Below are positions 2,536 through 63,796 of a stretch of 64,000 nucleotides of DNA, piece by piece. Source of the stretch: Octopus vulgaris (taxonomy: Eukaryota); the NCBI GenBank assembly GCA_951406725.2, contig OX597815.1, positions 121,644,001 to 121,708,000 of the forward strand, read 5' to 3'. A program made the position numbers and the translations under genes. How positions within the stretch are numbered: the first letter of the stretch is position 1; each line of letters begins with the position of its first letter. The notes under the pieces are model-generated. The model searched no databases, was not told the DNA's origin, and saw only the letters and a list, made by a program, of their open reading frames with translations.

Positions 2536-3044
2536 GGGGAAGAATATAGAAATACTATTTTATTGTTTTCAGCTAGTTGGCAGTAACCATACTGAGCCAT
2601 GTAAATAAAATTTACTGGCACTATCTTTACTTTCTCAATGAAAATAAAATCATTTCACAAAAAAAAAAAATAGGTGCCTGTATATTATTAAAATATATTA
2701 TATAGATGCAATCTAGTGGACATTGTGAATAATTTCTTTTGTAGTAAGTTCCACTTTTTATATGTGCATTTAAGGCACATATCTCATTGCTATGCAACAT
2801 TACAGATCCAAACATTAGGGAATAGTAGCTCCATGATCTTTCCCAACCTGTTTATACTTTCAGAACAATTGACACCCTGCTAATTACATCTCTTAGGTAA
2901 TAAAAGCTATCAATTACTTCTAGTGAGCCATCAAGGTATTTAAGAGAATTTCGTTAAGAAAATAAGACATATAATTTTAAAATTTAGAAGCTGAAATATT
3001 TTTTAACAAACTAATTCTTCCTTTCATTTTCTTTGCAATTCCAG

Positions 3045-3101
3045 AAACTGAATACTGCTTTGCATTACGCATCTTCATCAGGTCTGAAAAATTGTGTTGA
3101 G
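3045..3101 (+). CDS. ANKIB1: ANKIB1 exon (ankyrin repeat) KLNTALHYASSSGLKNCVE
   Basis: Polypyrimidine tract plus ccag acceptor; gtaagg donor; 57 nt, phase 0/0; ankyrin T-x-LHYA motif. Confidence 0.9.
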
Positions 3102-7680: not shown

Positions 7681-7966
7681 CAGTTCTATATTTAAGAGAT
7701 GAGGAATTATGCACATTATTTACATTTGACAGATATTTGTCCTCATCTTGTTTGTTGTTAAAACGTTTCAGCTGATATACCCTCCAGCCTTCTTCAGGTG
7801 TCTTGGGGAAATTGCAAACCTGGGCTCTCATTCCTAAGGTATTATTATTATTATTATTGTTCAGGTCACTGCTTGGAATCGAACTCGGAATCTTGGGTTA
7901 GTAACCTACACTCTTAACCACTATGCCATAGGCCTATGAGCATATGGCATAGTGGTTAAGAGTGTA
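7681..7966 (-). mobile_element. tRNA-headed, hammerhead-carrying non-coding retroelement (copy 1), with a 24-bp inverted duplication of its 5' end
   Basis: Minus strand: TGGCATAGTGG (A box)..GAGTTCGATTCC (B box)..(AAT)n..CTGAAGA-A-GGCTG..CAGCT-GAAACGTT. Arms 7907-7930 and 7943-7966 are perfect reverse complements. Homologous to 36691-37136. Confidence 0.75.
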
Positions 7967-10710: not shown

Positions 10711-11920
10711 GGGGTTGGCAGCTAAGTTCCTGCCGTTTTTTTAAATTTAAATTTTTTAAAAGGCTTAATAAGAAATAACAACTAATTAATCAATTATGTA
10801 TTCACCCTTGTTGTTTACAACTTCTTCCCAATGTTCAACAAGATTTTCAATACCTCATTGGTAGAAAGCATCCGATTTCGACTCAAAAAATTGATCCAAC
10901 TAAGCTCTCAATTCTGCATCAGTATTGAATGAAACTCGGTGCATAGCATTTGAAAGAGATCGAAAGAGGTGGAAATACATTGGTGCCAAATCAGGAGAGT
11001 ATGGCAGCACTTCCCAGCCATGCATTTGAATGGCTTCCTTGGTCATATTGGCGATATGAGGGCGGGCGTTGTCATGCAGCAGCAGAACTCCGTGCTGCTG
11101 ATTGAATAGCTGTGTTGAGTTGTTCCATCTGTTGAACATAGAGTTCCACATTGACCGTTTGGTTCCATTCAAGCAATTCGTAATGGATAATCCCTTCCCA
11201 GTCCCACCATACGCACAACATCATTTTACGTGGATGAAGATCTTTCACGTGCAGTGTCACTTGTTTACCGGTTCTAAGCCATTCCTTATGCTGCTTCATA
11301 TTGATGTACAGGCACCATTTTTCATAGCCAGTAACAATTCAGTAAAGAAATCATTACTTGTGTCCATGAGATGAGCAGTGACAAGCAAGCAAATTAGCGG
11401 AGATTATGGCTCGTTGATTTCTGTTGTTGTCACTTAAAGCATGCGGAACCCATGCTGCATACTTCTGAATCTTTCCCATTGAGTGAAGATGCTTCTCTAT
11501 AGAAGTGTCAGAACATTCCATTTTCTCCGCCAGTTCCCTTGTCGCTTGACGAGAAATATGATGAAAAAGTTGATTTAATCGCTCTTCATCGAACTCAACT
11601 GGACAGCCAGAATGAGGTGTGACTTGGAGGTCAAAATTTCCATTTCTGAACTTGGCATACCAATCACAAGCGGTTCTTTCAGCTATGGCACCCTTTCCAT
11701 ACACAGCACAAATGTCACGAGCAGCTTTTGTGGCCTTAGAATCTTGATTAAAAACAAAAAGAAGGAGGTGTCGAAAATGCTCGTTTTTCTTAACTTGACA
11801 TTCCATTTTAGTGATCTAAAAATAAACAAAAATTAACTAGAAAAAATACAAAATAAATTCCAAAATGATTCAAAAATAGAATTCTCAAAAAAAGCAGCAG
11901 GAACTTAGTTGTCAATCCAA
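10711..11920 (-). mobile_element. Near full-length mariner transposon with frameshifted transposase pseudogene, inserted in a family A SINE
   Basis: Terminal inverted repeats (TIRs) ggggttggcagctaagttcctgc / gcaggaacttagttgtcaatccaa flanked by TA. ORF pieces 11806-11354, 11299-11072 and 11172-10900 contain WVPHAL, LCVWWD, HDNARPH and YSPDLAP. Confidence 0.93.
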
Positions 11921-14120: not shown

Positions 14121-15256
14121 CTATGTATATATATATATTTATTTATGTCTTTGTGTCTGTCTCCCCACTCCACTATTGCTTGACAACCGATGTTGGTGTG
14201 TTTACATCCCCATAACTTACCAGTTCGGCAAAAGAGATTGATAGAATAAGTACTAGGCTTACGAAGAATAAGTTCTGGGATCAATTTCTTCAACTAAAAA
14301 ACCCTTTAAGGTGGTGCTCCAGCATAGCCACAGTCAAATGACTGAAACAAGCAAAAGAATATATATATATATATATATATAAGAAAAAAAACAGAATTAA
14401 AAACTCCAGATATCAATAAAGCACTCAGTTTTAAATGAATTTGGTTAACTAAGGAACATGGTTCAGCTGTTAGATTATTGGATTCACAATCCTGAGGTAG
14501 TGAGTTCAATTCCTGGACTGGGCTGTGTTCTTGAGCAAGACACTTTAATTCATATTGCTCCAGTCACTGGTGCCAAGCTGTATTGGCCTTTACCTTTCCC
14601 TTGGATAACATTGGCGGTGTGGAGAGAGGAGGCTGGTATGCATGGGCAACTGCTGGTCTTCTATAAACAACCTTGCCTGAACTTGTGCCTTGGAAGGTAA
14701 CTTTCTAGGTGCAATCCATGGTCATTCAAGACCAAAGAGGGTCTTCACTCTAATAATAATAATAATATATTATTATTATGCTTTATATCCAACAATCAGA
14801 CACCAGTAAATGTAAGTGAAATACACATTCCTCGTGTATGACAAGAGGATCCAAATACCATTTAGAGGAATTTCAGGAAATTCAGAGTATTTGGCAACAA
14901 AAATATATATAGAGAAAATCACATCTTTTTTGTAGAATTCACCTTATATAGCTGACAGGTATATCTTTATAAAAAATATCATTTAAATTATTATATATCT
15001 TGTGTGTGCAGTTAGATGTGTGAATACTATTGTATCAAGAGCTTCAGATTATTCAGGCAGCTTCCGGTACATTGGTTAGTTTACCACTGTGCTTAGCAGT
15101 CTTACTAGTAATGACATAGAGGCCATATGTAGTAGAAAATTAAGATACACTCAAGTAGAAATTATTAGTTTCTACTTATGTTTCACTATTGCAATGGTGA
15201 AATGTATGCAGAAACTAATAATTTATACCTGTGTTTATCTTAGTTTTCTACTCATA

Positions 15257-15793: not shown

Positions 15794-15817
15794 TATATAT
15801 ATATATATATATATATA

Positions 15818-16145
15818 ACAACATAAGGGACTAAAGCCATCTGAATATGGTTAGGGACAGGGCCGACACCGTCACGGTGCCCTAAACCTGCAAAGGGAGG
15901 TAATTCCCCGATGAAGCGGAGGCCTACCACACGCCGATGATAGGCAATACACCTTGAAACCATGGTCCGTGTGTGGTTTCCGCTTCATCGGGGAATTACC
16001 TCCCTTTGCAGGTTTAGGGCACCGTGACGGTGTCGAGCCTTTCTGGTGACGTCGATGTTCGCCTGGGGCTAAATGCAACAGTAACACCCCCACCACCCTG
16101 CCCTGTCCCTAACCATATTCAGATGGCTTTAGTCCCTTATGTTGT
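15818..16145 (+). mobile_element. 328-bp foldback element (A-B-loop-B'-C-A'), Penelope pseudo-LTR/retrozyme-like, next to a (TA)n tract
   Basis: Perfect inverted pairs 15818-15863/16100-16145 (46 bp) and 15864-15920/15979-16035 (57 bp); GC-richer than the flanks; hammerhead motif in the loop. Confidence 0.75.
15928..15973 (+). ncRNA. Minimal type I hammerhead ribozyme motif (variant core)
   Basis: cacacg-CCGAUGA-U-AGG-caauaca-CCU-U-GAAA-CCAUGG-UC-cgugug: 6-bp helix I, 3-bp helix II, palindromic helix III (ACCAUGGU), predicted GUC cleavage after 15967. C replaces the canonical U4. Confidence 0.72.
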
Positions 16146-16820
16146 CGAGCAGTTACTGTCTATATTCCTTTTAGAGAATTATTATTGCTATATATATATA
16201 TATAAAAATCAAATCACAATCAAAAATGGAAATTGTAGTTGTGGCTGTTGCTAGTGCTGCTTGACTGGCTCTCATTCTGGTGGCACGCAATAAGCACTAT
16301 TCATGTGTGGGTCATTGCCAGTGCTGCCTGACTGTCTCCCCGTGCAGGTGGCATGTAAAAACCACCATCCGAACATGGTCAATACCAGCCCCACCCCACC
16401 CCACCCCACCCTGACTGACTCCTGTGTGGGTAGCATATAAAAAGCACCATCCAAATGTGGCTAATGCCAGTGCCACCTGACTGGCTTCTGTGCCAGTGAC
16501 ACATAAAGAGCACCTACTACACTCTCAGAATGGTTGGTGTTAGGAAGGACATCCAGCTGTAGCAACATTGTCAGATCAGATTGGATCCCGGTGCAGCTTC
16601 CTGGCTTGCCAGTCCCCAGTCAAACCGTTCAACCCATGCCAGCATAGAAAATGGATGTTAAATGATGATGATGATGATGATGATGATAATGAGGATGATG
16701 ATGATATACATATATTATATTACAGAAAATAAAGTAAATCTCAAATGCAGAATAGCTGTGAATACAGCTTAGAAAATTGGGCAAGTACTTTTAAAAGATA
16801 GGGTGGGGAGTGACCAGGAT

Positions 16821-31572: not shown

Positions 31573-32871
31573 ACTTCATTACAGATACATTGACATCAGC
31601 TAATCTGGTGACCAAGACTACACTCTTAGTCATATCCCTTCACTTGCCTCAGACACCCAGAACTCACAAAAACCATATTTTGTAAGTGGCTGACTTGCAG
31701 CTGTGCACAAGCAATTCAAGTAAAGAATGACATGCAACATCTGGAGAAACACCTCTACTAACTGGGTGGCTTTTATTCATCCACCATTGCAATTCCTCCA
31801 AGACTATTACATTTCCATCTATCTGTCTGGATGATTTATTGTCCTCTATTGCGTTTTTGTTCCATTTTATACACTCACACACACATATATATATGTGTGC
31901 GTGCGTGTGCGTGATTGTGTATTCTTTATTCTTTTGTTTCAGTCATTGGAATGCAGCCATGCTAGAGCATTACCTTTAGTCGAAGAAATCAACCCCAGGA
32001 CTTATTCTTTGTAAGCCTAGTACTTATTCTATTGGTCTCTTTTGCCAAACCGCTAAGTTATGGGGACATAAACACACCACCATCGGTTGTCAAGCGATGT
32101 TGGGGGGACAAATACATACATACATATATACAATGGGCTTCTTTCAGTTTCCATCTACGAAATCCACTCACAAGGCTTTCGTTGGCCCATGGCTATAGTA
32201 GAAGACACTTGCCCAAGGTGCCATGCAGTGGGACTGAACCCGGAACCATGTGGTTGGTAAGCAAACTACTTACCACACAGCCACTCCTATATGTATGTAT
32301 AGATGTACATGTGTGTGTGTTTGCGTATCTGTCTTTGTCCTCTCACCATCGCTTGACAACCAATGCTGTTGTGTTTACATCCCCGTAACGTAGTGGTTTG
32401 GCAAAAGAGGCCGATAGAATAAGTACTAGGCTTACAAAGAATAAGTCCTGGGGTTGATTTCTTCGACTAAAGGTAATGCTCTAGCATGGCTGCATTCCAA
32501 TGACTGAAACAAAAGAATAAAGAATACACATACACGCACACGCACGCACACATATATATGTGTGTGTGAGTGTATAAAATGGAACAAAAACGCAATAGAG
32601 GACAATAAATCATCCAGACAGATAGATGGAAATGTAATAGTCTTGGAGGAATTGCAATGGTGGATGAATAAAAGCCACCCAGTTAGTAGAGGTGTTTCTC
32701 CAGATGTTGCATGTCATTCTTTACTTGAATTGCTTGTGCACAGCTGCAAGTCAGCCACTTACAAAATATGGTTTTTGTGAGTTCTGGGTGTCTGAGGCAA
32801 GTGAAGGGATATGACTAAGAGTGTAGTCTTGGTCACCAGATTAGCTGATGTCAATGTATCTGTAATGAAGT
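31573..32871. repeat. Near-perfect long inverted repeat: arms 31573-32032 and 32414-32871
   Basis: Arms are reverse complements apart from a few differences in an internal microsatellite. ORFs 31664-31882(-) and 32562-32780(+) translate identically. Confidence 0.95.
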
Positions 32872-34105
32872 ATCTTTGTTGTCAAAGATCATCAGAATAA
32901 TAATGGAAGAGTCACAAGTTTTAAAGATAGGGGATTCATCACTACGTATGAATGGATGTTGGGAAGCATTGATTAGGTAGAAGTCAGATAACTTGGTAGG
33001 GGAAGTGATAGTAGGTGTTCGGAAAAGGATAAGACAGGGTTGAAGTTAAGAAAGAAATGAGGTTTGTCTGGAGTGTCTTTGTGTCAATGATAGATAAGAG
33101 CAAGCAGTGATCTGTTGAAAATTTCATATGATTCAGCTTCTGTAATGCCAGCATGAATGTGGTAGGAGTGCAGTAGCAAAGAGTAGTAGTAATAGTAGTA
33201 GTAGTTCTTATTGTAGACATCAGCATTTAAGGGAGCTAGAACAAATTTTAAAGAAGAGGAATGTGAGACAGGTGTCCTCAATGCAGGATGAGAGTGATAG
33301 TTAAAAAGTTGCTGCCGACCAGAAAATTAATTCAGAGAGAGGTAGAAAAATAAAAAAGGGGATTTTGAAGTGGTAGCAACTGTAAGTAATTCATTGCCAA
33401 TAATATCCAGGTGTGACAGTTAAGTGGATTACATGCAGAGGAAGATGTAATTTTCCGAGTGAAGTTGGAATGGAGAATATAAACTGGACAATAGTGATAG
33501 TCTGAATAGTTAATGAGTAAGAGATTGGTGTCTGAGTGGAAGGCATGATGTATATTGCTTGCATGTTAGGATAGTTTCTTGCATTTCAGAGGGTTTCAAA
33601 GTGTTTATGGGCATTGCCCAACCTTGAAATAGAAAATAAATTACTTTAACCTTAAAATATCAACCCCAATATTTCTTCTTTTTTTTCTTGATTACTATTA
33701 TACTTTAAATGATGGTGCATGGTTTGAAGTTAGGGTATTGCACACTCAATCACAAGATCATTGCTTCAATTCACACACTGGTGGTGCTTTGTGTTCTTCA
33801 GCAAAACACTTCATTTTACATTATAAATGGGTAACCCTGTGATGAATCAGTATCCTGTTCAGTGGGAATGTCAGCTTGCCCACCTAGCCAGTGGGGAGAA
33901 ATCATTTGAAGGCCAAAACGATGTGGTAAAGTGCATTGTGACTAGCAGTGTATAACTACATCTGATAATCTGGTTGATGTAATGATCATACTTCAAAATT
34001 AACAAGGATAATTGTGTCAATGTTGTTTTAATTTTTTTACTATTTTCCTTATTTTAATTTCCTTTTATTTTAATTGATTGCATATGAAACTTTTGTTTTT
34101 TTCAG

Positions 34106-34231
34106 TTACTTGTACAAAATGGATCTCCGTTATTTATAGAAAATGTAGATCAACTGACACCTTGTGATATTGCGGAAAAAAATGGACATGGAGACATTGC
34201 TTTGTTTTTGGAATCAAAAATGGTGTTCTCT
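34106..34231 (+). CDS. ANKIB1: ANKIB1 exon [42 protein letters not shown]
   Basis: T-rich tract plus cag acceptor; gtaagt donor; 126 nt; directly continues the ankyrin repeat (CVE|LLV). Confidence 0.93.
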
Positions 34232-35652: not shown

Positions 35653-36737
35653 AAATTCTGTTTATAAAATTTCACTCGCCACCAATTCCTAATTCACATA
35701 GGCAAATATATATTATTGTAATCAAAATTCCTGCAATGGCTATTACCACTTCTAAAACCTGGAAACATATTTTCTTGTGGTGGAGAATGTGGGATACTAC
35801 AAGGCAATGTGATGACAGGAGATTATTTAACTGTTTTATACATTTTTATTTACAAAATTCCACATAATCTGTAACATCTTAAAAAAGAAAGACATGCTGG
35901 CAGAATATGGATGTGGCCAAGTGGCTATGAAATGCACTTCACAACCATAAGGTCTTGGGTTTGGTCCTACTATATATCTTGAGCAAGTATCTTTACCAGA
36001 GCTTTGGGTTCATTCAAACCATGTGAATGAAATTGATGCATAGCTGCATTATAAGAAGTTTGCTTCTCAACCACATAGTTCTAGGTTCAGCCCCACTGCA
36101 TGGCACTTTGGGAAAGTATCTTCTCATATAGCCTCAGGCTAGCCAAAGCCTAGTTAGTGTATTTAGGGTACCGAAACTAAAAGAATCCCATTGTATATAT
36201 GTATTTATAATTGACAACTCCAGTCAGCGAAAACAAACAGCCAACAGAATAAGTACAAGTCTTAAAAAAAAAAATTAAGTCCTGGGGTCTATTTGTTTGA
36301 CTAAACCCTTTAAGGTAGTGCCCCAGCATAGCTGCAATCCAATGACTGAAACAAGTAAAATATAAAAATAACTATGTGGAAACCTGTCAGATGTGTGGCA
36401 TCTGTTATTCAAAAGTCTGGCTTTGTTACAACAATATCATATTCGTTCTACTTAGAATCATATTAAGTGTACACACACTTTTGGAATACTCAGCCACTTG
36501 GTACACTAATTTAATGAATAAGTTGTTCCGTTGAGTCAACAAATGGATGTGCTCATAAGTTGAAACTGATAGAGAAGAGTGAGTCCATCATATATTGCTT
36601 AACTCTCTGGCAGTTACACTGGGCAGATCCAGCCTCTCATACCGACCCTACAATATCATTCCCAAAATAAACATCATCAAAATTTCATAACATTATTTAC
36701 ATTTGACGGATATTTGTCCTCATCTTGTTTGTTGTTA

Positions 36738-36781
36738 ACACAACGTTTTGGCTCATATACCCTCCAGCCTTCATCAGTTGT
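36738..36781 (-). ncRNA. Decayed minimal hammerhead motif
   Basis: acaa-CUGAUGA-A-GGCUG..GAGCC-AAAA-CGUU-gugu; GAAA has decayed to AAAA. Confidence 0.5.
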
Positions 36782-37010
36782 CTTGGGAAAATTTCGAACC
36801 TGGGTTCTCATTCCTAAGGTATTTTTCAGTGTTATTATTATTGTTGTTCAGGTCACTGCTTGGAATCGAACTCAGAATCTTAGAGTTAGTAGCCCACACT
36901 CTTAACCCCAAAATTCCAAGTCCAATTCCAAACAGTAACCTGAATAATAATAATAATAATAGCATCGAAAAATACCTAGGAATGAGAGCCCAGGTTCAAA
37001 ATTTCCCCAA

Positions 37011-37056
37011 GACACCTGATGAAAGCTGGAGTGTATATCAGCCGAAACGTTATGTT
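37011..37056 (+). ncRNA. Minimal hammerhead motif with intact core
   Basis: gacac-CUGAUGA-A-AGCUG-gagugauauau-like loop (gagtgtatat)-CAGCC-GAAA-CG-UU-auguu; palindromic ACGU at helix III; single mismatches in helices I and II. Confidence 0.65.
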
Positions 37057-38799
37057 AACAACAAACAAGATGAGGACAAATATCCATCAAATGTAAATAA
37101 TGTACATAATTCCTCATCTCTTAAATATAGAACTGGAAAATTTCATAATTACAAGATAATGCATGATTAGTTCAAAACAAAGTGAATAAGTATCATGTTT
37201 GACAGAGTAATCTAAATACTAAATGGTTAATCATGGCTGAGCTCAGACTAAAGGACAATTATGCAGTACTGCACATTGGGCCAAAGGCTTCTGCTATTGC
37301 TCTGGTCCAGCCAATTCATTGTAAATGAAATTGATTTACAGAAACTGAAAGAAGGCCATTGTGGGATATGTATTGTATGTGTGTTAGTATCTTTGTTTGT
37401 GCATGTTGACAATAGAAGTAAATGAGTGTCACCATCATAGAAGCAGTGCCATTTGTTTCCAATCTGCCATGAAAATATGTCCAGCTATGTGGAACTATTG
37501 CGTTGCTTGGAAACATGTAAATTGGGCAACAGGAACGGCATCTAGCCATAGAAAACCTGCTTCAATAAACATCATTCCGGCGCGTGCAAACATGGAAAAG
37601 TGGGTGTTAAAACAACTGTGGTTGTGATAATGGCGATGATGTTGTTATAGTAGTAGGAGGAGGAGGAGGAGGAGGGGAATTTACCATCAGACTTTGGCTC
37701 GAGGTAAAATTTCAAAAGATTTGGCAGTTCAACAGAAAGTGTAAAGTGAAGCATTACTTTGTTTCTGATTTGTTGAGTTACAAACCAGTTGTAATTAGGT
37801 TTTGAATAAATTGTGAAATTGTTACTGTCTGAATGTTTATGATGTTACTTTTATGATATTATGAAATCTGTGATTCTAAATAATGTTGTTGTCTTAGACA
37901 GCTCTGATGAAACATTTCAGCAGAGTTCATTCTGTCCTTCTTCCAGCATAGTGCGTCTTTATCATTATCCAATGTAGGTAAGATAGTGAATGGAGGATAG
38001 ACGAAACGGGGAAATTTGGACTGGTGTTTCTAGCAAGCCAAGTGTCCACATAGAACTTTCATTGTTCTTAATACTCTTTTATTCTTTTACTTGTTTCAGT
38101 CATTGGACTACATCCATGCTAAAGCACCACTTTGAAGGGTTTTAGTCGAACAAATCAACCCCAGGACTTACTTCTTAAGCCTGGTACTTATTCTATTGGT
38201 CTCTTTTGCTGAACTGTTAAGTTACAGGGATGTAAACATACCAACACTGGTTGTCAAGTGGTGATGGGGGAAGCAAACACAGGCACAAACACACACACAC
38301 ACACATATATATGTTGGGCTTCTTTCAGTTTCCATCTACTAAATCCACTAACAAGGCTATAGTAGAAGACACTTGCCCAAAGTGTCCCACAGTGGGACTG
38401 AACATGGAACTATGTGGTTTCTAAAGCAAGCTTTCTACCACACAACTACATCTCCACCTATATAATAATATTTTTTTTAAAATTGTGTAATGGTATATAG
38501 CAATGGTCTGGAATATGTCTAGAATTCCTGGATTTAAATAAAACTTTACCATAAAAGTGTTTTTACTTTTCATTTTATTTGTTTTTTATTTATTTATTTT
38601 TTTTTTTTGTTACAAACTTTCAAAAGGAAATATTTCCGATTTCAATTTTCATCACTTTAAAATTGATATTTGTAACCAAACTATATCTTTAAATTGTTTT
38701 AAAATTAATGTTTTCCATTTTGGTTTTACTGCTAAGTTTCGTTCATACTAATATTTGAACAAATAACAATGCTTCTTTCTTTCTTTTTATTGTTTGTAG

Positions 38800-40093: not shown

Positions 40094-40735
40094 TTGAGTC
40101 ATACCATAAATAATGCAGTTTTTTTTTATACTTCTTTTATTTTTCAAAATTAAGATAAGCAAATTTCTTTCTTAATCTTAAATATACTCACCTGCATTTC
40201 CTACAATGCTCTTCCATATATCTGGTAGATTTGCAAGGCCTCTCTTCCAAAATTCACATGTCCATGATGAAAAATACTCCTCCTGTATTGTTCTGACCTT
40301 GTCTACAGAATTCATGTTTTTCCCATCCAAATGATTTTGAAGACTTTGAATAAATGATAATCAGATGGGGCAATGACCGGCAAATATGGTAGTTGGGGCA
40401 TCATTTCCCATTCAAACTGCTCCAGCCTTTGGAATGTTATCCTTGCTGTATATGGCTGAGCATTATCCTGATGGAAGAACACTTTTTGTCTTGAAACCAA
40501 AGATGGTCGTTTCTCTTCTAGCTGCTCACAGTGGATCTCCTTTATTATTGTTTGTGTTGGATTTAAAAGTTCAAAGTGGACTAAACCTTTCATATCCCAC
40601 CACACAGATAGCAACACCTTACATGGGTGAAGACCATCTTTAGCCTGGAGTACCAGTGTTTCTCCTTTCCCTACCCACTATCTTCGATGCTTGACAGTTT
40701 CATAGAGAACCCATTTCTCATCACCAGTAACTATT
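40094..40735 (-). mobile_element. Partial mariner transposon (3' half)
   Basis: ORF 40617-40312 LSVWWD..HQDNAQPY..PVIAPSDYHLF; TIR-like ttgagtcataccataa after TA. Confidence 0.85.
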
Positions 40736-49959: not shown

Positions 49960-52140
49960 AATGTCTGCTTTCTATGCTGGCATGGGTTGGATGATTTGAC
50001 TGAGGACTGGCAAGCCAGGCAGCTGCACCAGGCTCCAATCTGATCTGGCAAGATTTCTACAGCTGGATGCCCTTCCTAATGCCAACAACTCCAAGAGTAT
50101 AGTAGGTGCTTTTTATGTGCTACCAGCACGGGTGGCAGTTGGCAGCACTGGCATCAGCAACACTCAAATGATGCTTTTTACGTGTCACCAGCACAGGTAC
50201 CAGTCAGGCATCACTGGCATTGGCTACACTGGAATGGTGCTTTTTACATGTCACCGGCACGGATGCCTGTCAGGCAGCACTGGCATTGGCCACACTCAAA
50301 TGGTGCTTTATACATGCAAGCAGTATGGGTGCCAGTCAGGTGACATTGACGTTGGCCACAACTACAATTTCACTTGACTCAACAAGTCTTCTCAAGTATA
50401 GCAGAATGCCAGACAATTGAAGGGTACTTTTAAACGGGCCGGTTATATGACACTGGCATCAGCTATGGCTATGATCCCACTTGGCTTGCCGGGTTTTCTC
50501 AAGCACAGCATATCTCCAAAGGTCTTGGTCACTTGTCATTGCCTCTGTGAGGCCCAACATTCAAAGATCATGCTTCACCACCTCATCCCATGTCTTCCTT
50601 GGTCTACCTCTTCCACAGGTTCCTTCCATTGTTAGGGTGACACGTCTTCACACAGCTGTCCTCATCCATATGCAACACATGACCATACCAGCACAGTAGT
50701 CTCTCTTGCACACCATATCTGAGGTTTCTTATATCCAACTTTTCTCTCAATGCACTTACATTCTGTCATGTATGCACACTGACATTACACATCTAGCTTC
50801 ATTTCTTTCAAGCCTGCATACATCCTCAGCAGTTACAGTCTATGTCTTACTGCTGTTCACTCATATGCATCATACAGTCTACCTTTCACTCTAAGCAAGA
50901 GGCCCTTTGTTACCAGCAGAGGTAGGAGCTCTCTGAACTTTGCCCAGACTATTCTTATTCTAGCAGCTGCTTTCTCAGAGCATCCACCCCGCTACTGACT
51001 TGGTTACCTAGGTAACAGAAGCTATCAATTACTTCCAGTTTTTCCCACTGGCATTTGTTGGAATCTGTTTTCTGTACATCTTTGGTGTTTATTGCTGCTG
51101 TGCAACTGCCACACAAAAGACTATCTTCCCAGTTAACCTTCCTTTGATATTACTGCATCTCTTATGTGTCCATAGCTTAATCAAGTACATCTTATGGAGT
51201 TTCTACCTATGCTTTTTCTACAGATTGAGCAGGACCATTTTCCCAAAGGGATTTGAGATTTGCCTGCCTTCGTACTTATTAAGACTTTGGTTTTAGCTAG
51301 GTTGACTCTCAGCCATTTGATTCTAATCCTTGCTTCCACACCTGAAACTTTTCCTCTAATTCTGATAGTGACTCAGCAATTAGAGCAAAGTCATCAGCAT
51401 AGAGGAGCTCCCAGGGCCATCCTGTCTTGAATTCCTCCGTTATTGCCTGGAGGACTATGATAAGAGGGGGCTGAGGACTAGTCCTTGGTGGACCCCTACT
51501 CAGAATTCTTCACTGTACTCGTTGCCAACCCTCACCTTACTGACAGCATCCCTGTACATGGCTTGTACAGCTTTCACAAACCATTCATCTATCTCTAGTT
51601 TCCTCATTGACCACCAGATAAGGGATCGGGGGACCCTGTCAAAGGTTTCCTCCATGTCAATGAAAGCCAGGTACAGAGATTTATCTTTGGCTAGGTATTT
51701 CTCTTGCAGCTGTCTTACCAGAAATATAGCATCAGTGGTGCTTTTCCCTGGCACAAACCCAAACTGCATCTCATCTAGACTGACTCTCTCCTAATTAGTT
51801 TGGCTAGACCCTCTCCATGACCTTCATTACCTGATCCAACAACTTGATACCCCTGTAATTATTTATATCTAATGCATCATCTTTACCTCTGTAGCAGTTG
51901 ACTATGGTGCTGCTACACCAGTCATTGACTCCTTGTATCACCTGGTTAACCTGGTTAACTATACGGTCGACTAGGCTATAGCCAACATCACCTGATACTT
52001 TAAGCATCTCTGCGGTGATTCCTGATGGGCCAGGGGCTTTCCCTGTCTTCATACTCTTAATTGCTTTATCTACCTAGGTACTGTCAATTTGGATAGCTGG
52101 CACCTCTGTTGGGTTGACATTGGGCAGACTCTCTTTCTCG
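49960..52140 (-). mobile_element. 5'-truncated RTE-clade LINE with decayed reverse transcriptase and 3' UTR containing ~60-65-bp tandem units
   Basis: KAPGPSGITAEMLK, NYRGIKLL, QFGFVPGKSTTDAIF, AFID..FDRVP, VGVHQG and WELLYADD (YADD at 51390-51401); stops and frameshifts. Confidence 0.92.
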
Positions 52141-53534: not shown

Positions 53535-53715
53535 AGTCCCATGAAAGGGAAGAATGCTACTGTTATTTAGCCCTAGGAAACACTGTTTCCTGTTGTACTT
53601 GACACATTTCCTGTGTCCTTATGTTTTCAAAGTGGAGACAAGTACCTCCACCCAGCAAAACCAGCATCCAGAGACTAGTTTCAGAGTCATTGCTCATCAT
53701 CAGTCCGGAGTAGCA
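53535..53715 (-). mobile_element. Non-coding hammerhead-bearing element, distant relative of 15818-16145
   Basis: Same order of parts in the sense (minus) strand: HHR, hairpin, hairpin, RGGGCTAAAT..ACAGTARCA; ends not defined. Confidence 0.65.
53667..53709 (-). ncRNA. Minimal type I hammerhead ribozyme motif
   Basis: uccgga-CUGAUGA-U-GAG-caauga-CUC-U-GAAA-CUAG-UC-ucugga: 6-bp helix I (one GU), palindromic ACUAGU helix III, GUC triplet. Confidence 0.75.
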
Positions 53716-62564: not shown

Positions 62565-63796
62565 CCAGGCTTTGCGAAAGTCCTGTTACACTCGTCATGA
62601 TGCTCTCAACAAAGGACACAATGATAGCTTTGATGCAGTTAGACACATCTCTATTGTTTTAATATACAATTATATGTTTAAATATTAATATTAATCAATG
62701 TGACCACTCTTGGCAGCAAGCACATGCTCCAGGCAAGATCTGAAGGTGGCACACACACACATTGTGGATGCAGTCCTTCCTCATGCTGGCCCACATGCAG
62801 TTGGTGGAGGACTTCAGTTCATTTATGTTACAGTGCGGATCTTGCAGGCCTTACCCTCGACATGTACCCACACACTGTAGTTGAAAGAGTTATGGTCGGG
62901 CAACAGCAGCAGCCAAAAGTTCTTCGAGCAGAAGTTCATGTCTGACCCCAACCACTCTTGCATGGCTTTGGTCGTGTGTGCCAGGGTACTGTCCTGCTGA
63001 AACACATAGTCTGTCTTCTTTGTGATCTTTCTCACCCAGAGCAGGGCTTTTGTGGCCAAGATATCCCTGTAGTTGGCCACAGTGAGCCTGTAACCAGTTG
63101 CAAACCACACTAGCGGCATCTTCTCCCCATTTGAAGCATCATCATGGAGGCCAGATGCTTGGTCGTTGACACGTAGCAGATCTTGGAGAGATCCTGGCCA
63201 AAGCTGACCATTCAGTTGTTCTTGTTGACAATTGGATTGAACCTGAAGGCTTTTCCATCAGAAAAAATGACAATTCGATTGTTGTGACACTCGAAGTCAT
63301 TGAGAAGGCAACAACAGTGCTCCCGACATTGTTCTCACACACGGTCAGTGAGCAGAGGCCTTTCCATTCACCTCAAGCTCTTACTGCCCTCTTGCTTGAT
63401 GGCCCTGGACACTGTAACCACTGAGATGTTGTTCTTCATGAGCACAGTCATTTTGAGTTTTGGATCACTTTCAAAGGCCTTTCTCTCAGCCAAATGGTTG
63501 ACAACTTGAGGTCTGCCTTATTGAGGTCAATCTTTGAGGTCTTTACTGTTCTTAAGCATCTCTGTGACTCTGTGAACAGTCATCTGGCTGACTTGTTGTA
63601 GCTCATGTGCAGGAGAGCAGGGATCTTGATTCTTTTTGCTTCCATCTCAATACACCTTCTCACAATAGAAAAGACATTTTAATGACACATGCTGGAAAAA
63701 TAGAATGTTAAGTATGTTTGATAGCACTCTTTCTATCGCAGTCGTTAACCTCTTGAAAGATCAAAACCAATGTAACAGAACTTTTGCAAAGCCCAG
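62565..63796 (-). mobile_element. Full-length but decayed Tc1/mariner (maT/DD37D-like) transposon
   Basis: TIRs ccaggctttgcgaaagtcctgttaca / tgtaacagaacttttgcaaagcccag with TA flanks; FSDGKAF and YVFQQDSTLAH..W..PDHNSFNYSVW motifs. Confidence 0.9.

What the first reader, a model, noticed from the sequence alone, without database searches (positions are those of the whole stretch)
15818..16145. Perfect nested foldback element with a variant hammerhead ribozyme in its loop
Seen: two mismatch-free inverted pairs (46 and 57 bp) enclose a 58-nt loop. The loop reads cacacg-CCGAUGA-U-AGG/CCU-U-GAAA-CCAUGG-UC-cgugug, a complete minimal type I hammerhead with palindromic helix III and a GUC site. It lies on the ANKIB1 sense strand, so it would be present in the pre-mRNA. 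Established: Penelope-like elements and retrozymes carry minimal HHRs whose palindromic helix III allows cleavage as dimers. Inference: a young, non-coding, ribozyme-processed retroelement whose left arm (A-B) is an inverted, internally deleted copy of its own 3' end. The U4C change could be a family trait or an inactivating mutation.
Basis: partly seen in the sequence, partly recalled or inferred. Interest (0 to 1): 0.8.

Follow-up and report, generated by a model that had tools for sequence, protein, structure and literature searches.

The report
Octopus retrozyme with variant hammerhead core
This is a young copy of a many-copy octopus repeat whose hammerhead-shaped RNA motif carries an unusual C in its catalytic core in every longest contig examined, and its folded-back shape likely comes from insertion by Penelope-type retrotransposon enzymes; whether the motif still cuts RNA is untested.

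Summary
The two perfect inverted pairs (46 and 57 bp), the 58-nt loop and the type I hammerhead motif are real. The element lies on the sense strand of a 31-kb ANKIB1 intron in an octopus genome. It is longer than reported: a 43-nt tail (16146-16188) precedes a (TA)8 run.

Public contigs show a high-copy family. Its unit fits from 15902 to the tail, has two 3' ends (with and without tail) joined to (TA)n, and is probably about 360 nt and tandem. CCGAUGA (U4C) is the family consensus, not a private lesion. Two variants rare in the family are mirrored in the left arm, so that arm was copied from this molecule.

A diverged U4 relative at 53.7 kb keeps all 10 helix pairs, 6 of them changed on both sides. 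The motif has full-size helices with a U·U mismatch, so it is not the minimal form.

Best reading: a 5'-truncated non-LTR retrozyme inserted with the known Penelope signature (inverted tail-less copy, tail, TA target). Cleavage, circles and read support for this locus are untested. New variant of a known kind.

The parts
15794..15817 (.). (TA)12, left half of the target; ends a copy of an abundant host SINE-like repeat
   Evidence: other copies of that repeat end in (TA)n at 14337 and 31521
15818..15863 (-). Arm A: inverted, tail-less copy of 16100-16145; carries the complements of the family-rare letters at 16112 and 16144
   Evidence: (table 3)
15864..15920 (-). Arm B: inverted copy of 15979-16035, joined to A with the 64-nt spacer skipped; 15902-15920 also matches the family's own 5' part
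   Evidence: (table 8)
15902..16188 (+). Family unit as far as public contigs fit (5'-truncated monomer; about 70 nt of the inferred 360-nt unit missing)
   Evidence: table 8: X2 15902-16204, X12 15902-16165, X4 15902-16143, X1 15902-15980
15921..15978 (+). Type I hammerhead motif: internal loop plus 6-bp helix I, U4C core (15934-15940; C4 = 15935), U-U-closed helix II, 2-bp helix III in an 8-nt palindrome; predicted cut after 15967
15979..16035 (+). B': family body; includes a segment complementary to the ribozyme core (about 15986-15992)
16036..16099 (+). 64-nt spacer, missing from the left arm; the part most widely shared with related subfamilies
   Evidence: (tables 2, 7, 8)
16100..16145 (+). 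A': ends at the family's tail-less 3' terminus
   Evidence: table 4 (8 contigs join (TA)n to this end) and table 5c
16146..16188 (+). 43-nt 3' tail, present on one side only
16189..16204 (.). (TA)8, right half of the target
53547..53713 (-). Diverged relative of the family with the standard U4 core (core at 53703), antisense in another ANKIB1 intron; comparator
36690..37135 (+). Unrelated hammerhead-bearing repeat with the same architecture (inverted tail-less copy, about 32-nt tail on one side); comparator
3044..3101 (+). ANKIB1 exon upstream of the host intron
34103..34231 (+). ANKIB1 exon downstream of the host intron

Best explanation
The sequence is a solo copy of a high-copy, non-coding octopus repeat with a U4C type I hammerhead motif, likely a 5'-truncated non-LTR retrozyme that Penelope-like enzymes would have inserted into a (TA)n run. 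Shown: family status, U4C consensus, two 3' ends 43 nt apart that both join (TA)n, and a left arm copied from this same molecule. Inferred steps: (1) tandem source arrays of about 360-nt units are transcribed, and the hammerheads would cut weakly, mainly as dimers through the palindromic helix III, to give monomers or circles; (2) a Penelope-type RT/GIY-YIG enzyme nicks (TA)n and copies the RNA from the tail end; (3) the other target end is joined to a second copy of the same template that ends at the tail-less terminus (16145), covers A', skips the 64-nt spacer at a short imperfect match and covers B'. This could be a second priming event or fold-back of the first cDNA; (4) the two meet at the unit's own hairpin (15902-15920 against about 15979-15997), which gives the perfect nested foldback. 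This solo copy has no dimer partner and probably cuts ANKIB1 pre-mRNA little or not at all.
For:: 1409 contigs laid in X1; the longest pieces in all 4 runs start fitting at 15902; no difference row at 15935, 34 letters inside those pieces, while a difference 31 letters from a piece end was listed; family G at 16112 (240,910 of 241,126 depth) and A at 16144 (648,855 of 678,550) against window A and G, both mirrored in arm A; 8 contigs join (TA)n directly to the 16145 end (34,838 of 35,211 depth at 15817); X12 and X4 contigs run on in TA behind 16204; one X4 contig of a related subfamily runs tail -> 210 letters -> spacer, a period of 362; 20 of 24 listed runs hold at least half the words, in 7 studies (6 without the best holder's) and 3 organism labels. 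Relative at 53703: local score 101 against a shuffle maximum of 66, downstream part alone 68.5 against 54.5, 0 of 1000 shuffles each; 10 of 10 helix pairs kept, 6 changed on both sides, 1 on one side, a different palindrome. Same architecture in a second family. Literature: inverted 5'-truncated copy, one-sided 30-40-bp tail and microsatellite bias in PLEs (PMC8557442; PMC3846280); tail equals the distance between two RT start sites (PMC11167929); mussel retrozymes of 350-390 bp, and an axolotl hammerhead with U-U at the base of helix II and a 2-bp helix III that cleaves better as a dimer (PMC7229834).
Against: No autonomous Penelope partner was identified. No TSD can be read in (TA)n. The 360-nt tandem unit rests on one contig of a diverged subfamily plus arithmetic on a second (X12 record 9, whose 94 extra letters were not displayed). 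The monomer hammerhead fold lies 8.5 kcal/mol above the ensemble in context and 12.4 in the isolated loop (no active-ribozyme control run), and the unconstrained two-copy fold did not form a double hammerhead. U4C considerably lowers activity in vitro (PMC3088659). Covariation rests on two sequences, and nhmmer found the relationship in one direction only (E 3e-4 with the relative as query, no hit the other way). Three differences per long contig (X2, X12, X4) were not listed and probably lie in 15902-15931, which includes part of helix I. A larger near-perfect inverted duplication of host DNA at 31573-32871 shows foldbacks also arise here without this element. The tail (43 nt) is slightly longer than the 30-40 quoted.
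Confidence: 0.7

Rival explanations
1. Same element and insertion route, but the ribozyme is dead: the family amplified from a master copy that already carried U4C, because Penelope-type copying does not need cleavage. This competes with step 1 only.
For: Hammerhead mutants did not change insertion in vitro for an anole PLE (PMC11167929); Naiads thrive without canonical hammerheads (PMC8557442); U4C lowers activity; the monomer fold is disfavoured; the older relative has U4.
Against: All other core letters and all helices are intact in this copy; U4C kept enough activity in vivo in a viroid (PMC3088659); the helix III palindrome is longer than in the U4 relative (self-duplex -11.2 against -4.8 kcal/mol), as compensation would predict.
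Confidence: 0.35
2. The repeat is the pLTR of an autonomous, ORF-bearing Penelope element, and this copy is an extremely truncated insertion of it.
For: Every insertion hallmark is that of PLEs; opposite-strand hammerhead pairs are typical of truncated PLEs (PMC4209133); sequence upstream of 15902 was not seen.
Against: Full-size helix I with internal loop instead of the minimal PLE form; no long reading frame starts in the unit (read by eye); a 362-nt head-to-tail period in X4 and a matching 359-nt contig in X12.
Confidence: 0.12
3. An ordinary monomer inserted first, and the left arm arose later by DNA fold-back repair or gene conversion, or is an assembly artefact.
For: Perfect arms and mirrored variants fit this too; a 320+117-bp perfect inverted duplication of host DNA sits at 31573-32871.
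Against: The left arm ends exactly at a terminus that many other family copies use next to (TA)n (tables 4, 5c); it contains no host flank and no tail, and it has an internal skip, none of which a fold-back read would be expected to give (inference); the second hammerhead family shows the same tail-less inversion with 90% arms, which an assembler would not make.
Confidence: 0.12
4. A foldback or MITE-type DNA transposon with 46-bp terminal inverted repeats and a chance hammerhead-like loop.
For: Perfect terminal-looking inverted repeats; TA on the left side.
Against: No TA directly right of 16145; family sequence runs on 43 nt; family contigs do not begin with arm A; hammerhead pairs covary with a relative; chance rate 0.00 per window.
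Confidence: 0.03

Closest known systems
Metazoan non-LTR retrozymes (Cervera & de la Pena 2020, PMC7229834; Li, Clavereau & Pollet 2026, 10.64898/2026.07.22.740005)
   Same: Non-coding unit of about 360 nt (mussel 350-390 bp), canonical-size type I hammerhead with short palindromic helix III, many copies, solo monomers, some head-to-tail arrangement; axolotl HHR_Amex2 shares the U-U base of helix II and the 2-bp helix III.
   Different: U4C core as family consensus; here a solo copy with an inverted tail-less arm and a 3' tail in (TA)n, features I did not see described for retrozymes in the passages read; cleavage and circles not shown.
Penelope-like element insertions with inverted pLTR and tail (Arkhipova 2013, PMC3846280; Craig 2021, PMC8557442; Frangieh 2024, PMC11167929)
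   Same: Inverted 5'-truncated copy at the 5' side, one-sided tail, two 3' termini, AT-rich or microsatellite target, microhomology joins, hammerhead near the 5' end.
   Different: No ORF; tail 43 nt; hammerhead full-size, not minimal; inverted arm internally deleted.
PLE minimal hammerheads (Cervera & de la Pena 2014, PMC4209133)
   Same: Type I topology, palindromic helix III region, presumed dimer action.
   Different: Those have a 4-5-bp helix I, a long helix II, a bulged base after position 9 and G10.1-C11.1; here helix I is 6 bp with an internal loop, helix II is U-U plus 3 bp, and position 4 is C.
U4C hammerhead of a viroid (Ambros & Flores 1998, as cited in Perreault 2011, PMC3088659)
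   Same: Same core change; reduced but non-zero activity reported.
   Different: There a variant in an RNA pathogen; here the consensus of a many-copy genomic family in an animal.

Membership tests
Type I hammerhead ribozyme | Core CUGANGA, GAAA and UH in order, with helix I open | tested here: not met
   All letters match except position 4 = C; U4C is a known tolerated variant
Type I hammerhead ribozyme | Helices I, II, III with compensatory variation | tested here: met
   10 of 10 pairs kept against the 53703 relative, 6 changed on both sides; two sequences only
Type I hammerhead ribozyme | Match to an Rfam hammerhead model | tested here: not met
   No hit at E<=10; the U4 relative is missed too, so the test is insensitive here
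Type I hammerhead ribozyme | Site-specific self-cleavage | not testable with these tools
   Needs an in vitro assay
PLE minimal hammerhead | Short helix I, long helix II, bulge after position 9, G10.1-C11.1 | tested here: not met
   6-bp helix I with internal loop; U-U plus 3 bp, the register kept by covariation (criteria)
Non-LTR retrozyme | Non-coding unit of 150-450 nt with a type I hammerhead | tested here: met
   287 nt here, about 360 inferred; no ORF of 90 aa or more overlaps it
Non-LTR retrozyme | Many genomic copies | tested here: met
   1409 contigs in X1; 7 studies, 3 organism labels; copy number not determined
Non-LTR retrozyme | Head-to-tail tandem copies, each with a hammerhead | tested here: inconclusive
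   One X4 contig with period 362 in a diverged subfamily; its hammerhead was not seen; X12 length consistent
Non-LTR retrozyme | Linear and circular monomer RNAs | not testable with these tools
   Only contigs were laid
Penelope-like element (autonomous) | ORF with RT and GIY-YIG endonuclease | tested here: not met
   None at the locus; sequence upstream of full-length copies not seen
Penelope-type insertion | Inverted 5'-truncated copy next to the 5' end | tested here: met
Penelope-type insertion | Optional 30-40-bp tail on one side; two 3' termini in the family | tested here: met
   43-nt tail, slightly longer than quoted; both termini joined to (TA)n in contigs
Penelope-type insertion | AT-rich or microsatellite target | tested here: met
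   (TA)12 and (TA)8 flanks; other copies run into TA
Penelope-type insertion | Sequence homology to the pLTR of an autonomous partner | not testable with these tools
   No genome held
MITE / foldback DNA transposon | Element bounded by terminal inverted repeats with a fixed TSD | tested here: not met
   Family sequence extends 43 nt past the right arm; no TA directly after 16145

The most novel reading that the evidence does not exclude
Octopuses carry a young, very abundant retrozyme family whose hammerhead is an active but attenuated, dimer-only U4C/U-U variant that searches requiring CUGANGA miss. It makes ~360-nt circular RNAs and is integrated by Penelope machinery that copies one template twice from two start sites. 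That would be a direct insertion footprint for PLE-driven retrozyme mobility and would point to a hidden class of CCGANGA genomic hammerheads.
Probability: 0.3. Interest if true: 0.72.

Novelty: new variant of a known kind. Interest (0 to 1): 0.5.

Why it matters
Which enzyme moves animal retrozymes is still argued from co-occurrence and sequence relatedness (PMC7229834; 10.64898/2026.07.22.740005). A retrozyme-like unit with the tail, the inverted tail-less copy and the TA target of Penelope insertions makes the question testable by mapping the ends of many copies in one genome. The mirrored rare variants give a single-molecule snapshot of how the inverted arm forms, a step still unexplained for PLEs. 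A U4C core fixed in a many-copy family is a natural test of whether cleavage is needed for spread. It also suggests that ribozyme surveys with a strict CUGANGA descriptor undercount. A 103-bp perfect RNA duplex in an octopus intron would be a likely A-to-I editing substrate (inference from recalled knowledge).

Tried and rejected
No whole genome is held, so copy number, arrays and an autonomous partner could not be looked for. Rfam: no hammerhead hit. Expression: no RNA holder listed; 11 holders are only guessed to be RNA, so nothing is concluded. Read support for this locus: no listed piece spans the stretch, and X2, X12 and X4 have no cover over 15806-15895; this neither confirms nor refutes the A|B junction. 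Viral contigs: 5 hits, 20 hits and 0 hits; none extends beyond the motif. Metagenome contigs: exact 32-mer 0 hits; architecture pattern 5 hits, of which 2 look like chance (L027, L028) and none of the 5 matches the octopus element downstream. The pattern was derived from both window copies, so its 2 hits are circular. A second hammerhead on the minus strand (core copy in B/B') was considered by eye and rejected: it has no helix I partner. The direction of the template skip could not be fixed, since both directions need one extra base lost. Literature: 'hammerhead + U4C/core variant' gave 2 papers, 'hammerhead + CCGANGA/CCGAUGA/CCGATGA' 13 listings, none on a genomic U4C family by title and abstract start, 'octopus + hammerhead ribozyme' 5 papers, 4 listed, none on this. 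Lunse 2017 and Ambros & Flores 1998 are not held and could describe U4C variants. Supplements (mussel hammerheads in PMC7229834, PLE files in PMC8557442, the O. vulgaris repeat library of PMC13282606, only listed) were not read and may already hold this family. Earlier-scan look-ups by sequence, place and words found no look-alike.

Full report
Observation. The nested foldback is as described: 15818-15863 pairs with 16100-16145 at 46 of 46 positions, 15864-15920 with 15979-16035 at 57 of 57, around a 58-nt loop; folding z = -29, 0 of 100 shuffles. The loop holds a complete type I hammerhead layout with core CCGATGA at 15934-15940 (C at position 4 = 15935) and a predicted cut after 15967. A descriptor needing all three helices, written after seeing the motif, gave 2 hits in the window (15934+, 53703-) against 0.00 (C4) and 0.02 (U4) per shuffled window over 100 shuffles. 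Rfam reports no hammerhead here or at the second site. An exon from the window is 98% identical to Octopus sinensis ANKIB1; exons at 3044-3101 and 34103-34231 on + put the element on the sense strand of a 31-kb intron.

Boundaries. The insert sits between (TA)12 (15794-15817), which ends a host SINE-like repeat, and (TA)8 (16189-16204). Between the right arm and that run lie 43 more bases (16146-16188) that belong to the element. No target duplication can be read.

A family, and U4C is its consensus. Of 24 listed runs, 20 hold at least half the sampled words, in 7 studies (6 without the best holder's) and 3 coded organisms. I laid 4 of the 24. X1 gave 1409 contigs with summed depths of about 1e5 to 1.2e6 over the element; this is not a copy number. 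The longest pieces in all four runs start fitting at 15902 (X2 to 16204, X12 to 16165, X4 to 16143, X1 to 15980), with 7, 5, 4 and 5 other letters. No difference is listed at 15935, which is 34 letters inside those pieces, whereas a difference 31 letters from a piece end was listed. So C4 is what these contigs carry. Three differences per long piece (X2, X12, X4) were not listed and must lie near piece ends, probably 15902-15931; I could not see them.

Two 3' ends. Contigs of X12 and X4 continue in TA behind 16204. In X1, 8 contigs (34,838 of 35,211 depth at 15817) join (TA)n directly to the arm-A start, which is the tail-less end at 16145, and table 5c shows one more such join. Craig 2021 (PMC8557442, passages) and Arkhipova 2013 (PMC3846280, passages) describe this for Penelope-like elements: an inverted 5'-truncated copy, a 30-40-bp tail on one side and microsatellite bias. 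Frangieh 2024 (PMC11167929, parts 1-2 of 4) maps the tail to the stretch between two RT start sites and finds AT-rich cleavage. An unrelated hammerhead family in the window has the same layout at 36690-37135: 136-bp arms at 90%, and an approximately 32-nt tail on the right that a second copy near 7.7-7.9 kb shares.

The left arm was copied from this molecule. The window has A at 16112, where X1 has G in 240,910 of 241,126 depth (also X2, X12, X4), and G at 16144, where X1 has A in 648,855 of 678,550. Both rare letters are mirrored at 15851 and 15819. One X2 contig shares the 16144 letter, so that one marks a subfamily. The skip of the 64-nt spacer falls at a short imperfect match between the start of the spacer and the start of A'. 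The inner join lies where the family's own 5' part (15902-15920) is complementary to B'. I infer either a second priming at 16145 or fold-back of the first cDNA with resolution at 16145; the data do not separate these. Gene conversion or a later DNA fold-back would also mirror variants, and a 320+117-bp perfect inverted duplication of host DNA at 31573-32871 keeps that rival alive. No listed contig spans the locus.

Unit size. One X4 contig (depth 21) of a diverged subfamily runs through the tail, then 210 unlike letters, then the spacer: a head-to-tail period of 362. The 359-nt X12 contig ends one base before a polymorphic site (16167) and carries 94 letters beyond 15902; as one full turn it gives about 360 (my arithmetic, letters not displayed). 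Mussel retrozymes are 350-390 bp (PMC7229834, parts 2-3 of 6 and passages).

The ribozyme. The 53703 copy is a diverged relative: local score 101 against a maximum of 66 in 1000 shuffles; the part downstream of the hammerhead alone scores 68.5 against 54.5, and it is the best non-self piece of 1344. nhmmer gives E 3e-4 in one direction and no hit in the other. It has the standard U4. Anchored on the core, all 10 helix pairs are kept: 6 with both sides changed, 1 with one side, 3 unchanged. Both copies have the same three-base bulge before a 6-bp helix I, U opposite U at the base of helix II, a similar loop 2 and a palindrome across helix III (8 nt here, 6 nt there). This is the full-size geometry, not the minimal PLE motif of PMC4209133 (parts 1-2 of 4). 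It is close to axolotl HHR_Amex2 (U-U, 2-bp helix III, 22% cleavage in an hour as monomer, more as dimer). That the loop letters resemble those of the canonical loop-loop contact is recalled and was not checked by a call. Perreault 2011 (PMC3088659, passages) notes U10.1-U11.1 as the best-tolerated mismatch, and U4C as much weaker in vitro yet sufficient for viroid infectivity, citing Ambros & Flores 1998 (not held). Against activity: the monomer fold is 8.5 kcal/mol above the ensemble in context (no active control), two copies did not fold as a double hammerhead unconstrained, though the palindrome self-pairs at -11.2 kcal/mol, and without its 5' extension the core pairs with a complementary segment in B'. 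This copy has no partner, so cleavage of ANKIB1 pre-mRNA is unlikely to be substantial.

Elsewhere. Collection scans found no relative. A metagenome pattern scan gave 5 loci: L026 is a U4 hammerhead repeat in nested inverted copies, L029 and L030 are one locus with a C4 core and partial helices, possibly a decayed copy, and L027 and L028 look like chance.

Comparison and novelty. It works like a non-LTR retrozyme carried by Penelope machinery. Membership is met for size, non-coding status, copy abundance and all insertion hallmarks, inconclusive for tandem arrays, and untested for cleavage and circles. Li et al. 2026 (part 1 of 5 and passages) argue for a PLE origin from co-occurrence and pLTR relatedness, with no mention of octopus, molluscs or tails; Goubert et al. 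(PMC8969392, passages; author name recalled) restate the PLE layout. The O. vulgaris repeat paper (PMC13282606, passages) lists 31 recently active Penelope-like families and does not mention ribozymes; its library was not read. PMC6155905 and PMC6765202 were seen as passages. My searches found no report of a genomic family fixed for U4C, but Lunse 2017 and several supplements were not seen. Verdict: a real feature and a new variant of a known kind. The foldback itself is a known insertion signature; the interest lies in the family-wide U4C core and in the Penelope footprint on a retrozyme-like unit. Interest 0.5.

Noticed in passing
window 31573-32871: Near-perfect nested inverted duplication (320 bp and 117 bp perfect) of host DNA including part of a SINE-like repeat; a recent fold-back event or an assembly artefact.
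   Followed up: partly
window 36690-37135 and about 7681-7966: Second hammerhead-bearing repeat family with standard cores (37016+, 7797-). The 36.9-kb copy has an inverted tail-less arm and an approximately 32-nt tail; the 7.8-kb copy has a 27-bp hairpin at its 5' side.
   Followed up: partly
window 53547-53713 (-): Older U4 relative of the element, antisense in an ANKIB1 intron, with no inverted arm or TA flank detected.
   Followed up: yes
window 16111-16121, run X4 record 25: Four A>G differences (16111, 16115, 16117, 16121) in one low-depth contig of a run guessed to be RNA, absent or nearly absent in X1, X2 and X12. Could be editing, but the contig has 19 differences in all and is more likely a diverged copy.
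   Followed up: no
window 16031-16038 and 16142-16149: Both arms end inside the same short motif on the right-hand copy; meaning unknown.
   Followed up: no
window about 15986-15992 and 15909-15915: B' holds a segment complementary to the ribozyme core, and the unit's 5' part holds a second core-like copy that pairs with it; a possible folding switch. The U4 relative lacks it.
   Followed up: partly
run X2 record 18, behind 16189: A contig identical to the window over 16127-16189 continues in 28 non-TA letters; may be the missing 5' part of the next tandem unit or another flank.
   Followed up: no
L029:801-850 and L030:108-160: Metagenome locus with a C4 hammerhead core, palindromic helix III and partial helices I and II; single copy, host not determined.
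   Followed up: partly
L026:512-1287: Nested inverted copies of a standard-core hammerhead repeat in a metagenome contig: the same kind of foldback in another source.
   Followed up: partly
window 15131-15252: 61-bp arms, 84% complementary, with no spacer.
   Followed up: no
window 10900-11815, 40312-40677, 62823-63257, 51500-51790: Broken frames that look, by eye and from recall, like mariner/Tc1 transposases and a LINE reverse transcriptase.
   Followed up: no
window 27651 and 59814: Further core-like hammerhead matches without a checked helix I.
   Followed up: no
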